The position numbers and the translations under genes were made by a program. Shown piece after piece: positions 13,791-52,095 of a stretch of 64,000 bases of DNA. The notes below the pieces were generated by a model, which worked only from the letters and a program-made list of their open reading frames with translations, was not told the DNA's origin and did not search any database. This stretch comes from Patescibacteria group bacterium. Its GTDB lineage: Bacteria; Patescibacteriota; Minisyncoccia; UBA6257; GWB1-50-10. How positions within the stretch are numbered: position 1 is the first letter of the stretch; each line of letters opens with the position of its first letter. Location: positions 107,010 through 171,009 of the forward strand of contig JANBVK010000001.1 of assembly GCA_024239035.1 (NCBI GenBank). Reading direction: 5' to 3'.

Positions 13791-15587
13791 ATGAGGTTTA
13801 AAATCAAAAATATAAGTATTTTCTGGCAGTTCGTATTGCTGGGGGTAATTATATTTACCATCATTGGAATTTTCCTCTCCAGTCTCATCGCCCCGGCGCT
13901 TATCCGCCTTACTCTACAACAACGGGAGCTGACCTCGGTAGTTTTTGCTAACCGGTTGGCTGCTGAATTTCTTTTACCAGAAGATTTTGTAAGGCCTGCA
14001 GAAGGAGAAAGCCGGGAACGCTTTGAACTTTTCGCGAACAACCTGCAAATTCCAGGGTTATTTCGAGTCAAAATCTGGAACCCTGAAGGGATTATTGTGT
14101 ATTCAGATATAGAAGAACTTATTGGGAAAAGGTTTCCATTACGCTCCGAACTTCAAAACGCGTTTAATCTGAAAACAGAAGTTAATTTAATAAAATTCGA
14201 TCCAAACGAACCGCAATATTTCTATGAGCTGTCCTTTGGAGAAGGCATAGAGGCCTACGCACCCCTTACCTTTGGTGCTTCCCCCGAAGTGATGGGAGTA
14301 GTAGGAACCTATGCTCGATCCGGATTCTTGCAGGAACAAATTAACGAAATTAAAAATCGTTTTGTACTAAGTATCGGACTATCTTTGGCTTTAATGTTTG
14401 CCGCACTTTCGTTTATCGTCTGGCGGGCTTCACGTACGGTTGACACCCAACGAAAAGAACTCTCAAAATATGCCACCGGCCTTGAAGAAATGGTAAAAGA
14501 AAGAACCGCCGAACTAGAAGAAGAAAGAACCAAACTCTCACAAATCACTCAACATATGAAAACCGGCGTCATTCTCTTAGATAAACAAGGAAAGGTTGTT
14601 TTTGTAAATAGGGAGGTTAAAGCTATGTTGTCGCTTAAAGATAAGGGAGAAGATAAAGCGCTTGAGATGCTCTATGCTAAATTCCCAAAATTAAATCTCA
14701 AAGAACTTATTTTAAAGTGCCTCTCGGGCCAACCCTCCAACATATCTGAAGCTGAGTCGGACGAGAAAATATTTGAAATATTATCTGGCTGCTTGCCTGA
14801 GCCTGGTAAAGGTTTTTTTGGCCACCTTATTTGGATACGAGACATTACTGAAGAAAAAGAACTTGACCGCGCGAAGACCGAATTCGTCGCCATTGCTTCG
14901 CACCAACTTAGAACCCCTCTCTCTACCATCAACTGGTACACGGAAATGCTCCTCAGCGGTGATAGGGGAAAAATAACAAAAGATCAGGAAACTTATTTGA
15001 AAGAAATCTACCACGGTAGCAAAAGAATGGTTGATTTGATTAATTCTCTCCTAAACGTTTCACGGATTGAATTAGGTACTTTTTCTGTTGAGCCAAAGTC
15101 GGTAAAACTTATAGAAATTGCCGACAGTGTAATAGGTGAACTTTTTCCAAAAATTAAAAACAAAAAATTAAAAATAGAAAAGGAGTATGATAAAGACCTG
15201 CCAATTATGAACGCCGATCCAAAACTTATGAGAATGGTCCTTCAAAACTTACTCGCAAACTCGGTTAACTATACTCCTGAAGGAGGGAGAATAAGTTTAA
15301 CAATTAAAAGACAGGGATCCGATGTATTTATCAAGGTTAGAGATACCGGCTATGGCATCCCCAAGGACCAGCAATCAAAAATTTTTGATAAACTATTCCG
15401 AGCCGACAACGTGATAGAAAAACAAACTGATGGCACGGGTTTGGGTCTATATACAGTAAAAGCGGTGGTGGAGCAATCCGGGGGCAAAATTCGGTTTGAA
15501 TCGGAAGAAAACAAAGGTACAACCTTCTACGTTACAATCCCTCTAAGCGGGATGATAAAGAAAGAAGGAGCCAAAAGACTCACTTGA
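13791..15587 (+). CDS. Sensor histidine kinase (two N-terminal TM segments, HisKA and HATPase_c)
   Basis: H-box FVAIASHQLRTPLSTI. G-boxes DTGYGIP and GTGLGLYTVKAVVEQSGG. Confidence 0.85.
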   Translation: MRFKIKNISIFWQFVLLGVIIFTIIGIFLSSLIAPALIRLTLQQRELTSVVFANRLAAEFLLPEDFVRPAEGESRERFELFANNLQIPGLFRVKIWNPEGIIVYSDIEELIGKRFPLRSELQNAFNLKTEVNLIKFDPNEPQYFYELSFGEGIEAYAPLTFGASPEVMGVVGTYARSGFLQEQINEIKNRFVLSIGLSLALMFAALSFIVWRASRTVDTQRKELSKYATGLEEMVKERTAELEEERTKLSQITQHMKTGVILLDKQGKVVFVNREVKAMLSLKDKGEDKALEMLYAKFPKLNLKELILKCLSGQPSNISEAESDEKIFEILSGCLPEPGKGFFGHLIWIRDITEEKELDRAKTEFVAIASHQLRTPLSTINWYTEMLLSGDRGKITKDQETYLKEIYHGSKRMVDLINSLLNVSRIELGTFSVEPKSVKLIEIADSVIGELFPKIKNKKLKIEKEYDKDLPIMNADPKLMRMVLQNLLANSVNYTPEGGRISLTIKRQGSDVFIKVRDTGYGIPKDQQSKIFDKLFRADNVIEKQTDGTGLGLYTVKAVVEQSGGKIRFESEENKGTTFYVTIPLSGMIKKEGAKRLT

Positions 15588-16659: not shown

Positions 16660-16974
16660 TTATTGTGATGTACTTGTGACGTTCGGAACAATTATTATTA
16701 ACCCCTCCCCCTCTTCACGATAATTAAATTGGGACTTCAGTTCCTTGAGAAGATTCTCCGGATTCTGGAAATATTCTATCCGAGAAGTGAGCGTCCTATT
16801 CTCTTCCTCAAGTGATTTTAAAACTTCACTTAATTCTGCCGCTTCTTTTCCTAATAAATTTTTCTCCTGCACCAGATTATAAACCCCCCACCCCAAGAGA
16901 GCAATAACTATAATTAAAACCAAAACCTTCCATAACGGCATCACCTCCATTATAACGTCCTTTCGGATTACCAT
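16660..16974 (-). CDS. Septum-formation initiator family protein (FtsB/DivIC-like: TM plus coiled coil)
   Basis: Single TM WKVLVLIIVIALLGWGVY followed by heptad-rich LSEVLKSLEEENRTLTSRIEYFQN. True start may be the internal Met around 16941. Confidence 0.5.
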   Translation of the reverse strand: MVIRKDVIMEVMPLWKVLVLIIVIALLGWGVYNLVQEKNLLGKEAAELSEVLKSLEEENRTLTSRIEYFQNPENLLKELKSQFNYREEGEGLIIIVPNVTSTSQ

Positions 16975-16986
16975 CCAACCAAAAAA

Positions 16987-17169
16987 GTAGTTGATAATCT
17001 TTTCTGTAATATGCCGGAGCGAAGCTATAAATTAACGAATGAAAAACAGAAAAGTAGAAAAACAGCGCTGTTTGAGCGAAACGAGTTCGCTGTTTTTCGT
17101 CAAGCTTTTCTGTTTTGAGGAGTATAATTTATCTGAGTAAAGGCGATTGCAGAGAAGATTATCAACTAC
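16987..17169. repeat. Repeat element family, copy A (about 183 bp, 20-bp terminal inverted repeats, core bidirectional terminator hairpin). 3' TIR overlaps the lepA stop codon.
   Basis: 5' arm GTAGTTGATAATCTTTTCTG and 3' arm CAGAGAAGATTATCAACTAC. Core AAAAACAGCGCTGTTTGAGCGAAACGAGTTCGCTGTTTTT. More than 85% identical to the copies at 48800 and 50523. Confidence 0.75.
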
Positions 17170-19549: not shown

Positions 19550-21337
19550 TTACACTACCTCCGCCTGATAACACTGCTCGCAATAAACTATCTCCTCCCT
19601 ATCTGGTGCGTATGACGTTTCAAACTCGTTGGGACACCTGCCTTCCAGGTGATGATTATGCTTCGTGGTGTTTTTGTACACCTTGTAATCACACACGCAT
19701 TGACGATGAAAAAGCTGAGGTCGATTTCTCCACGCAACTCTATCAAAGTGTCTACAATTGAAACAAAGCCGAGGTAACGGCAAATTCAGTTGGCGATAAA
19801 ATTGAAGTTCTTGGAAAGTAATACGAAAGGCCGTTGCACAATTTTCTCCACATTGCTCAGGATGATTATTATTTTCATCATGCTGGCATTGAATGACTTC
19901 TTTTAAGATGTCATCACCCAACTTTTGAATTTGATCGGGAAGTTCATCTGAGGTTTTAGTTATCGAATATGCCCTCTCTTTTGGTCTACGCCAGTTGTAA
20001 CCCTGCGCTTTTGCTTCTTTTTCCGTAAGCGGGAAATATTCATGTGCCTGTGTTTCACTGTATCCAAATGCACTCATATCTGGCGGGAAAAATTCACCGT
20101 ATTTATACACCCGTCCTTTTGCATCAACATAAGGCATTTTGTTCATATGTTTAATGATTTTCGGAACCATCGCTCTATAGTCTTCTTTCGAATATTGCCT
20201 ATTTAAAATGCAGTATTGCTTGCTCTTCAATGCTACACAGCCAAACAAATTGTTTGATTGACGACAATTTACTGTATAGCGAGATTCATTTGCCGCAAAT
20301 GATTCAGCTGTAAAAAATGTGTTATAGATACCGTGGCCGGTGGCAATAATATCATAGGTAAGCTCTGTACCTTCGGAAGATGTAACATCCATGCCGTCTT
20401 TATTTGGACCATAAATCACGCTTTGGCAATGAGCCATATTTTGAGCAGTGCCCACAAAAAAACAATTACGAAGCTCTGTTGCATTATAGAGATAATCACC
20501 AGTACAATTTTTTGCTTGTACGCTATGCTGATATTTGACGGGGTGTTTGAGCCATACTTCCATTGCTTGTCCTCGAGCACGCTCAATACCAGACCAAGAA
20601 TCAAGTCTCATTTCTGCAAGCTTTTTTTGATATTCCTCCTTGCCGTAAGATTCATTGAAAATATGATAGCTCTTATTTCGCAACCCTGAACAACCAAAAC
20701 AACTATCACATCCGACACAATCCTGACTGAACCATACGTCGTTACACGAAGTGCAGCTTCGTGAGAAGAAGGTTTTATACGAATCATTGGTGTTGATACA
20801 GTAGTAGCAAAGCTCACATCCTTTACAGTTGACCATATCTATACACTGCTTACTCCTCAGTAATGTGACACTGTAAGCGCTATCCTCTAGGTATCCTGCA
20901 TCAAAACACAAGTAGCAGTTTTTTGCCCATGCTGCGATACTGTAATCACTGTTTGTTTTTTCCATAGACCACATAGGAGCCCATGGAACTTTGTTAAACA
21001 AGTCCCTGATTTGTTCAAAGAATGGTTTTGAGAAATCATACTCCATTCCATAATCCATGGGGTCCCATGCATCACTCTCCCAGTATTCGTAATCATAAAC
21101 TGGCATTGGAGCATCGGGAGGAATTAAGGTAAATATTTTCTTTCCTGTGGCATCACAAGTACGTTCGTAAAGGTATCGCATGTTGCGAAAAGACATCCGA
21201 CGCATTGCTCGGCATTTCCAACAAAACGTCGGCACCGGCACTTTTATCTTCTCATAAAACGCAAAATCTTGAGCCTCAACCTCAAATGAGTTCTTACAGT
21301 TCTGACATAGTCGTTTTTCGGCTTGGAAATCAGACAT
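19550..21337 (-). CDS. Cys-rich multi-CxxC zinc-ribbon protein, paralog 1 of a 4-5 member family (cytoplasmic, 595 aa)
   Basis: N-terminal CQNCKNSF...CWKCR and C-terminal RCPNEF...YCEQCYQAEVV zinc-ribbon-like motifs. Internal CKGCELCYYC and DCVGCDSCFGC clusters. No signal peptide. Confidence 0.8.
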   Translation of the reverse strand: MSDFQAEKRLCQNCKNSFEVEAQDFAFYEKIKVPVPTFCWKCRAMRRMSFRNMRYLYERTCDATGKKIFTLIPPDAPMPVYDYEYWESDAWDPMDYGMEYDFSKPFFEQIRDLFNKVPWAPMWSMEKTNSDYSIAAWAKNCYLCFDAGYLEDSAYSVTLLRSKQCIDMVNCKGCELCYYCINTNDSYKTFFSRSCTSCNDVWFSQDCVGCDSCFGCSGLRNKSYHIFNESYGKEEYQKKLAEMRLDSWSGIERARGQAMEVWLKHPVKYQHSVQAKNCTGDYLYNATELRNCFFVGTAQNMAHCQSVIYGPNKDGMDVTSSEGTELTYDIIATGHGIYNTFFTAESFAANESRYTVNCRQSNNLFGCVALKSKQYCILNRQYSKEDYRAMVPKIIKHMNKMPYVDAKGRVYKYGEFFPPDMSAFGYSETQAHEYFPLTEKEAKAQGYNWRRPKERAYSITKTSDELPDQIQKLGDDILKEVIQCQHDENNNHPEQCGENCATAFRITFQELQFYRQLNLPLPRLCFNCRHFDRVAWRNRPQLFHRQCVCDYKVYKNTTKHNHHLEGRCPNEFETSYAPDREEIVYCEQCYQAEVV

Positions 21338-21502: not shown

Positions 21503-23290
21503 TCATACTACCTCCGCCTGATAACATTGTTCGCAGTAAACAATCTCCTTCCTCTCCGGAGCGTATGATGTCTCAAACTCGTTAGGGCATCTTCCTTCCA
21601 AGTGGTGGGAATGTTTTGTAGTGTTTTTGTATTTTGTAGCTTGCTCTGAGCCTGTCGAAGAGTCACACACGCACTGGCGGTGCCAAAGGTTTATAGGATT
21701 TCTTCTTCTGAAACGTGCATAATACCGGCAGTTGGGACATAGCCTAGGGAGAGGGATATTCATTTTTCTATAAAAATTGAGTTCATCAGAAACAATTCGG
21801 AAAGCCGTTACACACCTCTCTCCACATTTGCCCTGATGTGCACAACTAATAACTTCTTTCACAATACTGTCATCAACGTCTCTTATATGGTCAGGAAGTT
21901 GCTCTGCAGAGACAGTGATCTGATAAGAAGGTTTTTCGAGGTCACGCCAATTAAATCCTTGAGCAAGAGCGCGTTCTTTATCCAGCGGAAAGTAATCATA
22001 GGCCGGCGTTTCATTATAGGGGAAGGGAGACAGTTCTGTTGGAAAGAATTCTCCGTGAGCATATATCTTTCCCTTTTTATCTTTATATGACGCCTCGTTC
22101 AAGTGGTCTATAATTTGAAGAACAAGCTCCTCATATTTTTCTTTAGTATATTCTTTGTTTAAAATGCAATACTCCTTCTTGCGAAGTCCGATACACCCAA
22201 ATAAATCATGGCATCCGTTTTTACATATGTCACAATAGGTAATATTTCGCACTTCTGGCCAGGCATCCGAAGATAATTTCACATTGTAGGCATTCACGCC
22301 CATGGTGTTCACCTCATAGTTCAATTCCATCACGCAACACCCGTTGTTGATATCCATGGAATCCTTCGCTTTATTTACAAAAAGGCAATATCGGCAGTTT
22401 TCAAGTTCAGCCCCATTGAAACAGTGATAACAATCTTTAGAGTATGAAATCGTGTTTCCAACGACATTTGTTACGTTTTTAGTATAGGCATGTTTGTGCA
22501 ATGCTTTCTTTCTCATTGCTTCAAATTTAGCGGCATACGTTGAAAAATTCTTATACGAACCCGTATCAATGTCTTTCATTTTTTGCTTATAGTCCTCTTT
22601 GGTACATTGCTTATTTTCAAACACGTGAGACTTGTTCCAAATATTGCTGCTTAAAAAGCAATCTTGGGAACCCCTGGCATCGAAACAGAACGAAAGCCCC
22701 GTAGAACTCGCACAGTTTTCAACAAATATAAGTTGTGACACCTCGAGGCATTCGATACATTCATAACAATACTCTCCCCGGAGCACTATGAAACAATCAA
22801 CCAAGTTTTTAGAGTTCAAAATTCTGTAGCTATACATCGAGTCCTCGTTGTCCGAGCCTGAAAAAATGAGATAGCAATTTTTGCAATTTGCAATCTGGTT
22901 TGCGTATTCACAATTCACGCATTTATCAACTTGGAGCGCTACTCGAGGTACTTTATTCTGCAGCTCCTTAAATTGTGTAAAGAACGGTTTATTAAAATTG
23001 TATTCTCTTCCATATTGCGTTCCATCCCACTTATCTGAATACCAGCACTCTCGGCAATATACGGGGAAAGTCACATCCTGAGGATACATAGCAATAATAT
23101 CCTTGCGACAAAGGTCACATATTCGTTTATGAAGGCTTCTCTCATTTCGCCAAGAAAGTCTGCGTTGCAGCCGGCACGGAGGACACCACGTAGGCGCCGG
23201 CACTTTTATCTTCTCATAAAACGCAAAATCATCCGGTTCGATGGTAAACTGGTTTTTGCAGTTTTGACACTGTCTGGCCTCTTGTGTCAT
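21503..23290 (-). CDS. Cys-rich multi-CxxC zinc-ribbon protein, paralog 2
   Basis: Same architecture and termini as paralog 1 (CQNCKNQF...CPPCR at the N-terminus, YCEQCYQAEVV at the C-terminus). 35-bp nucleotide-identical patch with paralog 1 (GCCGGCACTTTTATCTTCTCATAAAACGCAAAATC). Confidence 0.8.
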   Translation of the reverse strand: MTQEARQCQNCKNQFTIEPDDFAFYEKIKVPAPTWCPPCRLQRRLSWRNERSLHKRICDLCRKDIIAMYPQDVTFPVYCRECWYSDKWDGTQYGREYNFNKPFFTQFKELQNKVPRVALQVDKCVNCEYANQIANCKNCYLIFSGSDNEDSMYSYRILNSKNLVDCFIVLRGEYCYECIECLEVSQLIFVENCASSTGLSFCFDARGSQDCFLSSNIWNKSHVFENKQCTKEDYKQKMKDIDTGSYKNFSTYAAKFEAMRKKALHKHAYTKNVTNVVGNTISYSKDCYHCFNGAELENCRYCLFVNKAKDSMDINNGCCVMELNYEVNTMGVNAYNVKLSSDAWPEVRNITYCDICKNGCHDLFGCIGLRKKEYCILNKEYTKEKYEELVLQIIDHLNEASYKDKKGKIYAHGEFFPTELSPFPYNETPAYDYFPLDKERALAQGFNWRDLEKPSYQITVSAEQLPDHIRDVDDSIVKEVISCAHQGKCGERCVTAFRIVSDELNFYRKMNIPLPRLCPNCRYYARFRRRNPINLWHRQCVCDSSTGSEQATKYKNTTKHSHHLEGRCPNEFETSYAPERKEIVYCEQCYQAEVV

Positions 23291-33710: not shown

Positions 33711-33911
33711 TTAAAGGAGGTAAAACTCTTTACTCGTGAGTATGTCGGAGAGTGTTATAAAATTCGCGAGAGAGAATGATAAGCAATAGAACAAAATTGT
33801 TGTTTGAGCGAAGCGAGTTTGATTTTGTTCGTCTTTGCTTCATTCAAGCAAGCTTGAATTTTAAACACTCGGAGACTTTTACGAATGAGAAAGAGCTTTA
33901 GCGAACTAACT

Positions 33912-33962
33912 TTATCCCCAGAACTGCCTAGTTATCCCCAGAACTGTCCACAATTCCCCACT
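33912..33962. promoter_or_regulatory. Three TGGGG(A) direct repeats at exact 20-bp spacing (two full TTATCCCCAGAACTG units plus a third partial) about 200 bp upstream of mraZ. Candidate MraZ operator.
   Basis: CCCCA at 33916, 33936 and 33956 on the + strand, which reads TGGGG in the gene orientation. Confidence 0.45.
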
Positions 33963-33997
33963 TGAGTTTAATATTACCCCACCCGATCAAACCGAGT

Positions 33998-34025
33998 CAA
34001 AAACAAAAATCCGCCACCCGGCGGA
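33998..34025 (-). terminator. Rho-independent terminator after cutA (CCGCCGGGTGGCGG plus TTTTTGTTTTT on the minus strand)
   Basis: Hairpin followed by a T-run in the minus orientation, 64 nt after the cutA stop. Confidence 0.65.
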
Positions 34026-48709: not shown

Positions 48710-48799
48710 ACTACTCCACAAAATAAGATTTTTGTTTCTGAAGAAACCTGTCGGAGCGAGACGGTGAACATAATCCACCGCTTATCACCCAATCAAAAA

Positions 48800-48987
48800 G
48801 TAGTTCATAAATTCTCCTCTGTAGTATGCCGGAGCGAAGTCATAAATTAACGAACGAGAAACTAAAAAGTAGAAAAACAGTGCTGTTTGAGCGAAGCGAG
48901 TTCGCTGTTTTTCGTTAAGCTTTTCTGTTTTGAGGAGTATATATTTATCTGAGTAAAGGCGGCTACAGAGGAGAATTTATGAACTAC
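48800..48987. repeat. Repeat element family, copy B (188 bp, perfect 25-bp TIRs GTAGTTCATAAATTCTCCTCTGTAG / CTACAGAGGAGAATTTATGAACTAC)
   Basis: Core is more than 90% identical to copies A and C. Lies between convergent genes. Confidence 0.75.
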
Positions 48988-50452: not shown

Positions 50453-50522
50453 TACACTTATACTACCACTCTCCCCTTACGAATAGTCAAGTAAATCTCT
50501 TTTTACTACCCAACCCTAAAAA

Positions 50523-50639
50523 GTAGTTGATAAATCTTCTCTGTAATATGTCGGAGCGAAGTTATAAATTAACGAACGAGAAACTGAAAAGTAGAAAAAC
50601 AGTGCTGTTTGAGCGAAGCGAGTTCGCTGTTTTTCGTTA
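50523..50639. repeat. Repeat element family, copy C, 3'-truncated after the core hairpin (lacks the 3' TIR)
   Basis: 5' TIR GTAGTTGATAAATCTTCTCTG plus the conserved core to ...CGCTGTTTTTCGTTA. Confidence 0.7.
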
Positions 50640-50669
50640 CCTTATTACACCACATCCCACAAACGTAAT

Positions 50670-50834
50670 CAGCTTTTAGCTGAGGACAGATTGCTTTTCG
50701 GAATATCTCGCAGTCCCGTTGGGCTTGGTCTCGAGCGAGGTGAGAGCCAGCGGGACGAGGGAAAAGAAAGTTTTACCGCTGGAGTAAAACTATTCTGGTT
50801 CCGAAAGGTAACTGTCCGAGGATACTAAAAGCTG
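50670..50834. ncRNA. Candidate structured RNA of about 165 nt (long closing stem with tandem G-A internal loop, 10-bp second stem, mutually exclusive inner helices), abutting the serS stop
   Basis: CAGCTTTTAG pairs CTAAAAGCTG. GGACAG pairs CTGTCC. CTTTTCGGAA pairs TTCCGAAAGG. CCAGCGG/CCGCTGG competes with GTTTTAC/GTAAAAC. Confidence 0.4.
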
Positions 50835-50835
50835 A

Positions 50836-52095
50836 CTACTTCCTTCCTATCTCACTCTTCCCCACATAATCTTTCAGCGCTTTTGGAACTTTGATAGTTC
50901 CCCGCTGAGTTTGATAATTCTCAAATATCGCAACTAAAGTCCGCCCAATAGCAAAAGCTGTAGCGTTCAACATATGGACAAACTCTTTCTTCTCTCCCCT
51001 CATCTCATATTTAGTATTAACGCCGCGCGCTTGAAAATCAGTAGTATTAGAGCACGAATGGGTTTCCCGATAAGTCCCCTCTCCGGGAAGCCACGCCTCA
51101 ATATCATGCTGTTGCGCATCAGTCCAGCCCATATCCCCCGTGCATATCTCAACCACTCTGTAAGGGATATCAAGTTTTTCCATTAACTTTTCCTGAAGAG
51201 AAAGTAAAATTTCATACTCCTTAACCGAATCCTTTGGTTTAGTGAATGAGAACATTTCCACTTTATCAAATTGGTGAACTCGCAAAATCCCTTTAGTATC
51301 TTTACCGTATGAGCCCGCCTCCCTCCTAAAACAGGTTGAAAAACCAACATATCGTCGGGGTAGTGTTTTTTCGTTCAATACCTTATTCATATGCATCGGC
51401 CCTATAGTGTGCTCCGCGCTTCCTACCAAATATAGATCGTCTTTGGGTAAATAATAACGTTCCTCTTTCTGGTCTGCGGCAAGTCTCCCCATACCGGCGA
51501 ATGCCTCAGGACGAATCATTACCGGCGGCACAACCGGAATAAATCCATGTGGTAGAAGCGTGTCATATGCAAGCTTCACAAGCCCGAACTCAAGGAGCAC
51601 TGCGTCCCTTAATATATAACTGAAACGAGTGCCCGTCACTTGAGAGGCGCTCTGAATGTCAATCAAGCCTAAATTTTCTGCTAAATCGAGGTGACTTTTC
51701 GGTTGAAATTTAAACTTCGGTTTCTTGCCAACTTCCCTTAAAACTTTATTAAAAGATTCATCTTTACCAACAGGGACGTCCTTAAAGGGTAAGTTGGGTA
51801 AGTAGCTCAAAACCTCATCTCGTTTTTTACCGAAGGTTTCACTCTCACCTTTTATTTGAATAATGCGCTTCTTTAAAATCTGTGCCCGGTTTAACGAGTA
51901 GTCTCTACGACCTTCAGCGAGTTCACTGGTAACCTTATTTTGCTCCGCTTTAAGTTGATCTAGGGCGGCTATTTTTTTCCTCCACTCATCATCCAATCTA
52001 AGAAACTTATCAACAAGCTTTGGATCAACATTTTTTTTAGTAATTCCTTCTCTTACCTTATCTGGATTTTCGCGAATTATATTTACGTCGAGCAT
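50836..52095 (-). CDS. serS: Seryl-tRNA synthetase
   Basis: Class II motifs, N-terminal coiled coil, 419 aa. Confidence 0.95.
   Translation of the reverse strand: MLDVNIIRENPDKVREGITKKNVDPKLVDKFLRLDDEWRKKIAALDQLKAEQNKVTSELAEGRRDYSLNRAQILKKRIIQIKGESETFGKKRDEVLSYLPNLPFKDVPVGKDESFNKVLREVGKKPKFKFQPKSHLDLAENLGLIDIQSASQVTGTRFSYILRDAVLLEFGLVKLAYDTLLPHGFIPVVPPVMIRPEAFAGMGRLAADQKEERYYLPKDDLYLVGSAEHTIGPMHMNKVLNEKTLPRRYVGFSTCFRREAGSYGKDTKGILRVHQFDKVEMFSFTKPKDSVKEYEILLSLQEKLMEKLDIPYRVVEICTGDMGWTDAQQHDIEAWLPGEGTYRETHSCSNTTDFQARGVNTKYEMRGEKKEFVHMLNATAFAIGRTLVAIFENYQTQRGTIKVPKALKDYVGKSEIGRK

What the first reader, a model, noticed from the sequence alone, without database searches (positions are those of the whole stretch)
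48800..48987. Intergenic repeat element of about 185 bp in three copies, with a conserved terminator-like core and copy-specific but self-complementary terminal inverted repeats
Copies at 16987..17169, 48800..48987 and 50523..50639 share a conserved core. It reads TATGCCGGAGCGAAG.TATAAATTAACGAA.GA.AAAC..AAAAGTAGAAAAACAG.GCTGTTTGAGCGAA.CGAGTTCGCTGTTTTTCGT.AAGCTTTTCTGTTTTGAGGAGTATA..TTTATCTGAGTAAAGGCG. The hairpin AAAAACAGCG/CGCTGTTTTT has an A-run on one side and a T-run on the other, so it could act as a bidirectional intrinsic terminator. Each full copy is bounded by 20-25-bp inverted repeats whose sequences differ between copies A and B (GTAGTTGATAATCTTTTCTG versus GTAGTTCATAAATTCTCCTCTGTAG). 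The partner arm carries matching changes in each copy. That pattern points to a structural (RNA or cruciform) constraint and argues against a fixed transposase-binding site. Upstream of each 5' arm CCAA.C...AAAAA is also conserved. No transposase is present. Possibilities are a MITE-like mobile terminator cassette or a small structured RNA gene family.
Basis: seen in the sequence. Interest (0 to 1): 0.75.

Follow-up and report, generated by a model that had tools for sequence, protein, structure and literature searches.

The report
Rod-hairpin intergenic repeat, invariant apical loop
The repeat is real: five copies of a roughly 180-base hairpin element sit between housekeeping genes of a tiny Patescibacteria genome, and their loop carries a 19-base motif found unchanged at the tip of otherwise unrelated long hairpins in many bacterial phyla, a class I could not find in Rfam or in the searchable literature.

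Summary
Copies A (16987-17169), B (48800-48987) and truncated C (50523-50639) are real. There is also a diverged full copy D (33721-33900) and a distant branched relative X (50665-50839). Each element folds end to end into a rod hairpin. The arms differ between copies but stay complementary, including a matched 2-nt indel. These loci span Bacteroidota, Clostridia, Burkholderiales, several CPR groups, Acidobacteriota, Nitrospirales and others. No Rfam family matches, and no protein is shared among neighbouring genes. At orthologous sites in relatives the element is replaced, absent or breaks the assembly, so it turns over like a mobile or REP-like repeat. G-U pairs favour the motif strand, which in this genome is antisense to the flanking genes. 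My best reading is a non-autonomous REP/MITE-like structured repeat whose apex is a recognition module. The sRNA-family reading remains open. The idea of a bidirectional terminator at the core hairpin is not the conserved feature.

The parts
16965..16986 (+). Tail of copy A (GGATTACCATCCAACCAAAAAA). On the - strand it reads TTTTTT followed by GGTTGGATGGTAATCC, directly after the rod.
   Evidence: The tail is conserved before A, B, C and X. It is absent from the orthologous lepA-divIC spacer of relative L193, so it belongs to the element.
16987..17169 (+). Copy A, a full rod hairpin. Its GTAG end on the - strand (17169-17166) contains the lepA stop codon TAG.
   Evidence: MFE is -76.8 on the + strand versus -57.3 on the - strand, with 6 versus 0 G-U pairs.
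17069..17087 (+). Apical module of A, TGTTTGAGCGAAACGAGTT, with one mismatch to the class motif.
33721..33900 (+). Copy D, a diverged full rod with its own compensating stems and non-GTAG ends. It lies in the mraZ 5' leader.
33801..33819 (+). Apical module of D, an exact match to TGTTTGAGCGAAGCGAGTT.
48781..48799 (+). Tail of copy B (CTTATCACCCAATCAAAAA).
48800..48987 (+). Copy B, a full rod lying between the convergent PMT-family gene (+) and a 264-aa gene (-).
48884..48902 (+). Apical module of B, an exact match.
50503..50522 (+). Tail of copy C (TTACTACCCAACCCTAAAAA).
50523..50639 (+). Copy C, consisting of the 5' arm plus the apex and truncated just after the apex, where the tail of X begins.
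50606..50624 (+). Apical module of C, an exact match.
50640..50664 (+). Tail-like sequence before X (CCTTATTACACCACATCCCACAAAC).
   Evidence: by comparison with the tails of A, B and C.
50665..50839 (+). Element X, a branched relative. It has an outer stem, hairpin 1 with the apex variant GAGCGAGGTGAG (50733-50744) and hairpin 2 with the loop CCGCTGGAG (50776-50784). Its CTAC end contains the serS stop codon on the - strand.
   Evidence: An orthologue follows serS in L195/L196, and a further member lies in L197/L198. In their alignment 21 of 45 pairs keep pairing through changes on both sides.

Best explanation
The window carries a local Patescibacteria subfamily of a large cross-phylum class of non-autonomous, structured intergenic repeats that resemble REP and MITE elements. 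Each unit is a single-strand rod hairpin about 180 nt long. Its arms evolve quickly and in concert. Its only invariant part is the apical module (Y)UGUYUGA-GCGNAGC-GAGUU, a GNA-triloop minihairpin flanked by G and A residues that could form tandem G.A pairs. Shown: the fold, the compensation, the invariance of the apex across phyla, the intergenic position at gene 3' ends, the turnover at orthologous sites, and the strand asymmetry. Inferred: the apex is the recognition site of a trans-acting factor. That factor could be a hairpin-specific mobilising nuclease of the HUH/Y1 (RAYT-like) kind acting on the motif strand as single-stranded DNA, or an RNA-binding protein. Also inferred: the arms stay complementary through selection for the hairpin in active copies together with arm-to-arm template switching, and copies spread to, or replace, hairpins just after stop codons. 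In this genome the rod plus its T-run tail then serves, secondarily, as a terminator or insulator for the upstream gene on the - strand.
For: Structure: the rod folds have z-scores from -5 to -11. Thirteen of 63 pairs show changes on both sides among A, B and D. The A/B terminal stems change in concert, including a matched indel.

My own estimate of the chance expectation is about 9 loci. In 87 of 101 instances at least 30 pairs span the motif, against 7 of 90 control positions. The apex-proximal stem has a covariation score of 0.505 against 0.207 in shuffles, and 0 of 500 shuffles reach it. Extra copies show the loop variants GCG[A/C/G/T]AGC, as expected for a GNA triloop.

Non-autonomy: no protein family is shared among the neighbours. 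The Pfam scans of the flanking genes and the mid-sized ORFs of the window found no transposase.

Turnover: the lepA-divIC spacer is 200 nt here. It is a 39-nt hairpin in a relative with 94% LepA identity, and it holds a related element with an assembly gap in a relative with 91% identity. The serS-downstream element is present in two lineages and absent in three. The site of B is empty in L195. Assemblies of relatives break at the element.

Position: across the class there are 13 convergent against 3 divergent spacers, and the upstream gene is co-oriented in 28 cases against 9.

Strand: the motif strand folds better in 89 of 100 instances. Isolated mismatches are G.T in 78 cases and A.C in 36. 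In the window there are 27 G-U pairs on the + strand against 6 on the - strand, which runs against the direction of the GC skew.

Kinship: enterobacterial REPs have a GTAG end and an AAGCG-N-AGCGC apex (PMC2817692; PMC3733652).
Against: No transposase or RAYT gene was found, and its presence elsewhere in the 729-kb genome could not be tested. No target-site duplication or clean empty site was seen, because the lepA site of the relative carries a different short hairpin rather than nothing. The GTAG/CTAC ends are missing in D. REP-RAYT pairs are lineage-specific, whereas this apex is invariant across phyla, which suggests a more universal partner. The X-type element has persisted after serS in lineages whose SerRS is only 71% identical, with compensatory changes, and this looks more like a maintained function than like a selfish repeat. 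In this CPR lineage the folding strand is antisense to every co-directional flanking gene. Passive co-transcription does not explain that.
Confidence: 0.5

Rival explanations
1. The elements are a family of structured small RNA genes. In this reading they are transcribed from the + strand, with the conserved tail as promoter or 5' element. They fold into a rod or three-way RNA whose invariant apical loop (and, in X-type members, the CCGCUGGAG loop) binds a conserved cellular partner. The multiple copies would be paralogues.
For: G-U pairs lie on the + strand in all four full copies (27 against 6), even though the mutational skew runs the other way. All five copies are on the + strand; four of them are antisense to genes that flank them co-directionally, and B lies between convergent genes. 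The 20-nt tail is conserved only on the 5' side. The X-type architecture and both of its loops are kept across three lineages, with 21 of 45 pairs changed on both sides. Many members in other phyla carry a downstream module whose U-rich tract mirrors the hairpin's U-rich arm, as expected for a U.A-U triple helix, which is an RNA-type feature.
Against: The consensus scan finds no sigma-70-like promoter in the tail, and the candidate hexamers I could see have 18-20-nt spacers. No Rfam family matches. The A.C mismatches are not rare: there are 36 against 78 G.T, which is weak for a strongly selected RNA. The rapid replacement or absence at orthologous sites and the assembly breaks are typical of repeats. 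In most other phyla the motif strand is co-oriented with the upstream gene, so an independent transcript is not required there. In RNA the GCGNAGC minihairpin is considerably less stable than in DNA (PMC13037366).
Confidence: 0.27
2. The elements are simply unusually long intrinsic terminators or 3'-end stabilisers that duplicated locally, and the apex is a thermodynamically favoured loop with no specific partner.
For: Rods A, B and C are followed by TTTTT(T) on the gene strand. A and X start inside the stop codons of lepA and serS. The terminator scan gives hits inside A, B and C on the + strand. The class prefers gene 3' ends and convergent spacers. GNA and GNRA loops are common in stable hairpins.
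Against: Thermodynamics cannot explain an invariant 19-nt loop, including the unpaired UGUUUGA and GAGUU flanks, across phyla with GC fractions from 0.30 to 0.72. D lies between a predicted promoter and mraZ, after a separate cutA terminator, and has no T-run after the rod. The strand that folds better is not the gene strand in this genome. A 180-nt rod is far longer than a terminator needs.
Confidence: 0.13
3. The elements are single-stranded-DNA signals such as priming, SSB-exclusion or origin-like hairpins. They would be analogous to the G4 and RSF1010 ssi signals or to plasmid sso elements, acting during replication or transfer.
For: GCGNAGC and CCGAAGG minihairpins are known at ssDNA priming sites and in phage N4 hairpin promoters (PMC13037366). 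Plasmid sso elements are, from my own recollection and not checked here, long variable hairpins with small conserved loop motifs. The class also occurs on megaplasmids and in phage-associated contigs.
Against: In the window the motif strand is the leading-strand template, not the lagging-strand template that becomes single-stranded. The GC skew is -0.146 and 38 of 48 large ORFs are on the - strand. Orientation relative to genes differs between this CPR lineage and other phyla. The copies sit between housekeeping genes on a chromosome.
Confidence: 0.07

Closest known systems
REP / REPIN elements with their RAYT (Y1 HUH) transposases, in particular the GTAG-tagged REP superfamily (PMC2817692, PMC3733652, PMC3116915)
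   Same: Both are extragenic. Both lie mostly after genes, between unidirectional or convergent ORFs. Both are hairpin-forming, and G.T pairs are tolerated in the stems. A, B and C have GTAG/CTAC termini. The apex is of the AGCG-N-AGCG kind, as in enterobacterial REPs (GTAAGCGaaGCGCC). Both occur as inverted head-to-head pairs in some hosts (Variovorax and Ralstonia).
   Different: The rod is 180-230 nt rather than 20-40 nt. Here the stems vary and the loop is invariant, which is the opposite of REPINs. The same 19-mer recurs across phyla, whereas REPs are lineage-specific. D lacks GTAG. No RAYT was found nearby.
Hairpin-forming bacterial MITEs: Correia/NEMIS, ERIC/IRU, bcr1, RUP
   Same: They are 100-200-bp multi-copy intergenic elements that fold into long hairpins. 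By my recollection they are co-transcribed and can carry terminators or outward promoters. Insertion polymorphism occurs between strains.
   Different: Those families have conserved terminal inverted repeats, usually a target-site duplication, and a narrow host range. Here the terminal repeats are copy-specific, no duplication is seen, and the conserved part is the apex.
Integron attC sites and plasmid ssoA origins (structure conserved, sequence variable, small conserved motifs)
   Same: The logic is the same: a variable imperfect hairpin read as a single strand, with only short motifs conserved.
   Different: attC sites have R''/R' boxes (RYYYAAC...GTTRRRY) at the outer ends and sit in cassette arrays next to intI. 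Neither is seen here: the ends read GTAGTT...AACTAC, which is the opposite arrangement. No plasmid or rolling-circle context is present.
ENE / MALAT1-type U.A-U triple-helix RNA stability elements (relevant only to the downstream module seen in other phyla)
   Same: A U-rich tract mirrors the U-rich arm of an adjacent hairpin whose other arm is A-rich, with a C opposite the single G, as needed for U.A-U and C+.G-C triples.
   Different: The strands are all in cis and need no poly(A) tail. The context is bacterial. The module is absent from the window copies and has not been tested experimentally.

Membership tests
REP/REPIN-RAYT | Short (20-40 nt) imperfect palindrome | tested here: not met
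   The rods are 175-188 nt.
REP/REPIN-RAYT | Conserved terminal GT(A/G)G tetranucleotide | tested here: inconclusive
   A, B and C start with GTAGTT and end with AACTAC. X ends with CTAC. D has no GTAG. In A and X the GTAG coincides with the stop codons of lepA and serS, and the same AAGTAG gene end exists in a relative with a different element.
REP/REPIN-RAYT | Cognate RAYT (Y1 transposase) gene in the genome, flanked by REPs | not testable with these tools
   No Y1 transposase appeared among the window ORFs scanned or near 120 class loci.
REP/REPIN-RAYT | High copy number, extragenic, mostly downstream of ORFs | tested here: inconclusive
   There are five copies in 64 kb, all intergenic. Across the class, convergent spacers outnumber divergent ones 13 to 3. 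The genome-wide count is unknown.
MITE (IS-derived) | Terminal inverted repeats conserved between copies (the transposase binding site) | tested here: not met
   The terminal arms are the most divergent part between A and B, and they are unrelated in D.
MITE (IS-derived) | Target-site duplication flanking each copy | tested here: not met
   No direct repeat flanks A, B or C.
MITE (IS-derived) | Presence/absence polymorphism between related genomes | tested here: met
   The lepA-divIC, serS-downstream and PMT/264-aa sites all differ between relatives.
Intrinsic (factor-independent) terminator | GC-rich hairpin immediately followed by a U-tract on the transcribed strand | tested here: inconclusive
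   On the - strand, rods A, B and C are followed by TTTTT(T). On the + strand, scan hits lie inside A, B and C. D and X lack a clear U-tract. No transcript data are available.
Any Rfam 15 RNA family | Covariance-model match at or near the gathering score | tested here: not met
   The window gave only three tRNAs. No hit fell on the elements at E<=10. Other class loci gave none either.
Integron attC | R''(RYYYAAC)...R'(GTTRRRY) outer boxes, in a cassette array next to intI | tested here: not met
   The ends read GTAGTTGAT...ATCAACTAC, which is the opposite polarity, and the neighbours are housekeeping genes.

The most novel reading that the evidence does not exclude
The window's repeat may be the local face of an undescribed cross-phylum class of structured nucleic-acid elements. 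The class would be defined by an invariant apical module (UGUYUGA-GCGNAGC-GAGUU) on hypervariable 150-230-nt rods. In roughly half of the members outside this lineage there is also a downstream module predicted to form a U.A-U triple helix. On this reading the class is a new kind of widespread bacterial non-coding RNA, or a hairpin mobile element with a near-universal, still unknown protein partner.
Probability: 0.35. Interest if true: 0.85.

Novelty: new variant of a known kind. Interest (0 to 1): 0.66.

Why it matters
If the class is truly undescribed, it is one of the most widely distributed non-coding sequence motifs outside the universal RNAs. It occurs in gut Bacteroidota and Clostridia, soil Burkholderiales (Variovorax, and Ralstonia solanacearum including strain GMI1000) and several CPR lineages. 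It has a clear experimental handle, a 19-nt loop, in cultivable hosts.

It would also pose a sharp question: what molecule reads an invariant loop on stems that are free to change completely?

For CPR biology, it shows that a 0.73-Mb streamlined genome tolerates or uses multiple 180-nt hairpins at gene ends.

For annotation, these elements break assemblies of relatives at exactly these sites. They also overlap stop codons, so they affect MAG contiguity and 3'-end calls.

Tried and rejected
1. Known RNA families. Five Rfam searches, in both gathering and E-value modes, found nothing on any element.

2. Literature string searches. The apex and the downstream-module sequences returned only unrelated primers. 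Descriptive searches returned only general REP/MITE papers.

3. Viral scan. Sixty-nine loci matched, but two large groups are probable chance matches. One is a set of near-identical contigs, probably prophage-derived, in which repeated short motifs that look like iterons follow the match. The other is the end of integrated inoviruses carrying Zot and Rep_trans. Only about 8 of the 69 were genuine hairpin members.

4. Associated protein. All-against-all clustering of ORFs within 3 kb of 120 loci gave no shared family.

5. Metagenome scan for the A-type subfamily (GGAGCGAAG, a gap, then the apex). It gave a single unrelated hit, so no subfamily-wide covariation set could be built.

6. E. coli genomes. 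No match.

7. A stem-plus-heptaloop model of the apex (UUUG/CGAG). I rejected it because natural variants change U4 to C and vary only the middle triloop base, which fits GCGNAGC.

8. Kink-turn, sarcin-ricin, boxA, SRP, 6S and tRNA-like readings of the apex. I considered these from memory and dropped them, because the sequence did not fit the consensus motifs as I recall them. None was formally tested.

9. A putative sixth rod at 583-767. It does not fold as a rod, so I rejected it.

10. A quantitative test of the triple-helix mirror rule. My sliding-window score did not discriminate (6.53 against 6.57). The support comes from inspecting individual members whose tracts are asymmetric.

Full report
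**Observation.** A and B are 87% identical over 207 bp, and C matches both at 90-92% over its 133-135 bp. The terminal inverted repeats of A and B are the two longest inverted repeats in the 64-kb window. The same blastn uncovered a fourth, much more diverged copy, D (33721-33900). Inspection of the sequence that truncates C revealed a fifth, distant member, X (50665-839). Every full copy folds from end to end into a single rod. MFE is -76.8, -74.9 and -59.6 kcal/mol for A, B and D, with z-scores of -10.8, -8.5 and -5.2 against dinucleotide shuffles. So the terminal repeats are only the outer part of a whole-length hairpin. Between A and B the terminal stem carries three fully compensated substitutions, two wobble-to-Watson-Crick changes and a 2-nt indel present in both arms. 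Among A, B and D, 13 of 63 predicted pairs keep pairing through changes on both sides.

**Genomic setting.** The window comes from a 729-kb scaffold (ENA ERZ23499938) of a Patescibacteria organism. Its LepA is 72% identical to that of the nearest named MAGs, Candidatus Jorgensenbacteria. The neighbours are housekeeping genes: lepA, a divIC-like gene, serS, mraZ, cutA and a PMT-family glycosyltransferase. No transposase was found among the ORFs scanned. Thirty-eight of 48 large ORFs lie on the - strand, and the + strand has a GC skew of -0.146. All five elements carry the motif on the + strand. They are therefore antisense to the genes that flank A, C, X and D co-directionally, while B lies between convergent genes. 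The GTAG end of A contains the lepA stop codon, and the CTAC end of X contains the serS stop codon. On the gene strand it reads rod, then TTTTT(T), then GGTTGGRTGRTAA.

**What is actually conserved.** A to D share the loop TGTTTGAGCGAA(G/A)CGAGTT. I scanned one genome per GTDB species for this 19-mer. The loci come from Bacteroidota, Lachnospiraceae and other Clostridia, Variovorax and other Burkholderiales, Saccharibacteria, Gracilibacteria, Magasanikbacteria, Acidobacteriota, Nitrospirales, Elusimicrobia, Gastranaerophilales and Poribacteria, at GC fractions from 0.30 to 0.72. In almost all of them the motif is the loop of a long hairpin whose stems are unrelated in sequence. In 87 of 101 scorable instances at least 30 predicted pairs span the motif, against 7 of 90 control positions. 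The eight apex-proximal pairs use all pair types, with a covariation score of 0.505 against 0.207 in shuffles (0 of 500 shuffles reach it). Additional copies in the same loci show which loop positions may vary. These are U4 to C and the middle base of GCG-N-AGC, that is, a GNA triloop closed by two G-C pairs. BLAST also finds the motif on 128 Ralstonia megaplasmids, including GMI1000, and on Variovorax, Parabacteroides and Butyrivibrio replicons. It finds none in 5,426 E. coli genomes. No Rfam 15 family matches any member. Literature searches with the sequences found nothing relevant. No protein family recurs within 3 kb of the loci.

**Which strand folds.** Across the class the motif strand is the more stable in 89 of 100 cases, by a mean of 10.6 kcal/mol. 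With an arm alignment that treats G.T and A.C equally, isolated mismatches are G.T 78 times and A.C 36 times. This is a real but moderate bias. In the window the + strand folds contain 6, 8, 5 and 8 G-U pairs for A, B, D and X, against 0, 2, 1 and 3 on the - strand. The replication-associated skew should push the other way. So the motif strand acts as a single strand. Whether it does so as RNA or as DNA is not settled. GCGNAGC is the classical extraordinarily stable DNA minihairpin, known at ssDNA priming sites and in N4 hairpin promoters, and it is considerably less stable as RNA (PMC13037366). Features seen in other phyla, described below, look like RNA.

**Turnover.** In a relative with 94% identical LepA, the 200-nt lepA-divIC segment (rod plus tail) is replaced by a 39-nt hairpin whose ends resemble those of X. 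In a relative with 91% identity the site begins GTAGTTGATAAAT and then runs into an assembly gap. An independent assembly of the source sample ends inside A. The contig of another relative ends exactly at serS-TAG-TT. After serS, an X-type element is present in the window and in a lineage with 71% SerRS identity (L195/L196). It is absent in three other lineages, where the spacers are 97, 43 and 10 nt. A further X-type member sits elsewhere in L197/L198. The three X-type sequences share an outer stem, a hairpin capped by UCGAGCGARGYGAGA and a second hairpin with the loop CC(G)GCUGGRG. In their alignment 21 of 45 pairs keep pairing through changes on both sides. At the site of B, the two convergent genes overlap in L195. 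No clean empty site or target-site duplication was found.

**Terminator question.** The A-run/T-run around the core stem exists only in this AT-rich subfamily. Elsewhere the sub-apical stems are GC-rich and have no T-run. On the + strand the consensus scan does find AGCGAA-GCGAG-TTCGCT followed by GTTTTTCG in A, B and C. On the - strand the whole rod is followed by a T-run. D, however, lies downstream of a canonical cutA terminator and a predicted promoter, inside the mraZ leader. Class-wide the elements favour gene 3' ends. Convergent spacers outnumber divergent ones 13 to 3, and the upstream gene is co-oriented in 28 cases against 9. In this CPR lineage, by contrast, every informative copy is antisense to its flanking genes. 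Termination is therefore a plausible local by-product and not the conserved property.

**Interpretation.** The closest known kind is the GTAG-tagged REP/REPIN world. Those elements are extragenic hairpins after genes that tolerate G.T pairs, have GTAG termini and, in enterobacteria, carry an AAGCG-N-AGCGC apex (PMC2817692; PMC3733652). The differences are substantial: the length, the hypervariable stems with an invariant loop, the cross-phylum identity, and the absence of any RAYT in view. Classical MITE criteria fail, because there are neither conserved terminal repeats nor a target-site duplication. The matched indel in both arms suggests that arm-to-arm templating (quasipalindrome correction) contributes to the compensation. 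Compensation alone therefore does not prove an RNA constraint. I commit, at about 0.5, to a non-autonomous structured repeat whose apex is a recognition module for a trans-acting factor. The sRNA-family reading is at about 0.27. It is supported mainly by the strand asymmetry, the one-sided conserved tail and the long persistence of the X-type.

**Seen outside the window.** About half of the class members in other phyla carry, 50-90 nt downstream of the apex, a second module: U-tract 1, a 2-nt linker, U-rich arm 2, a loop (often GCGAAGC or ATCAAG) and an A-rich arm. In about a dozen members with asymmetric tracts (for example L074, L079, L086, L091, L105, L130, L172 and L173), U-tract 1 is the mirror image of arm 2 and not a copy of it. 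It is therefore parallel to the purine arm, with C over G. This is the signature of a U.A-U/C+.G-C triple helix. My crude numerical test of the rule was uninformative.

Noticed in passing
L086:2060-2130, L202:1270-1330, L091, L172, L128 and others (not in the window): About half of the class members in other phyla have a downstream module: U-tract, CT linker, TACTTTCTTTGG, loop, CAAAGAAAGTGAG. The upstream U-tract is the mirror image of the hairpin's U-rich arm, as predicted for a cis U.A-U / C+.G-C triple helix. The stem sequence TACTTT...AAAGTA is conserved from Bacteroidota to Burkholderiales.
   Followed up: partly
window 50665-50839; L195:2353-2510(-); L197:5736-5903(-): The X-type elements are three-way structures with a second conserved loop, CC(G)GCUGGRG, in addition to the GAGCGARGYGAG apex. 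The one after serS is orthologous between lineages whose SerRS is 71% identical.
   Followed up: partly
window 33905-33960 and 33971-34025: There are two direct repeats of TTATCCCCAGAACTG (on the - strand, CAGTTCTGGGGATAA). They lie between a predicted promoter (34000-33971, -) with the cutA terminator (34025-34010, -) on one side and copy D with mraZ on the other. They look like MraZ operator boxes, which would place D inside the dcw-operon leader.
   Followed up: no
L086:1570-2140; L202:950-1330; also L079, L143, L151, L185: In Variovorax and Ralstonia the elements occur as head-to-head inverted pairs about 255-295 nt apart. In L086 the centre holds a perfect hairpin capped by GCGTAGC, flanked by GGCC-GAGCGAAGC-...-GGCC hairpins. 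The whole forms a palindrome of roughly 600 nt built from GAGCGAAGC units.
   Followed up: partly
L014-L189 (for example L084, L113, L142, L145, L147): A subclass has an enlarged conserved apex, YGAGGAC-TGTTTGAGCGAAGCGAGTT-CCGCAG. The same GAGGAG / CCGCAG words form an internal loop further down the rod in Variovorax. This suggests that the inner stem is an expansion between two conserved modules.
   Followed up: no
L191 end (4168), L192:11804-11903 (N run), L194 end (1803): Assemblies of the source sample and of close relatives break, or contain gaps, exactly at these elements.
   Followed up: yes
L010, L019, L030, L031, L036, L045, L054, L069 (viral contigs): The 17-mer TTTGAGCGAAGCGAGTT lies exactly at the boundary between the conserved end of an integrated inovirus (Zot, Rep_trans) and variable flanking DNA. 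This is probably a chance match in one phage lineage, but an att-site role was not excluded.
   Followed up: partly
window 13791-15587, 19550-21337, 21503-23290: Three ORFs of about 595 aa have similar lengths, two of them in tandem. The counterparts of the tandem ORFs in relative L192 carry no Pfam hit on record. Paralogy and function were not examined.
   Followed up: no
window 1-64000: The + strand GC skew is strongly negative and becomes steadily more so, from -0.07 at the left end to -0.21 at the right end. Gene orientation is 38 of 48 large ORFs on the - strand.
   Followed up: no
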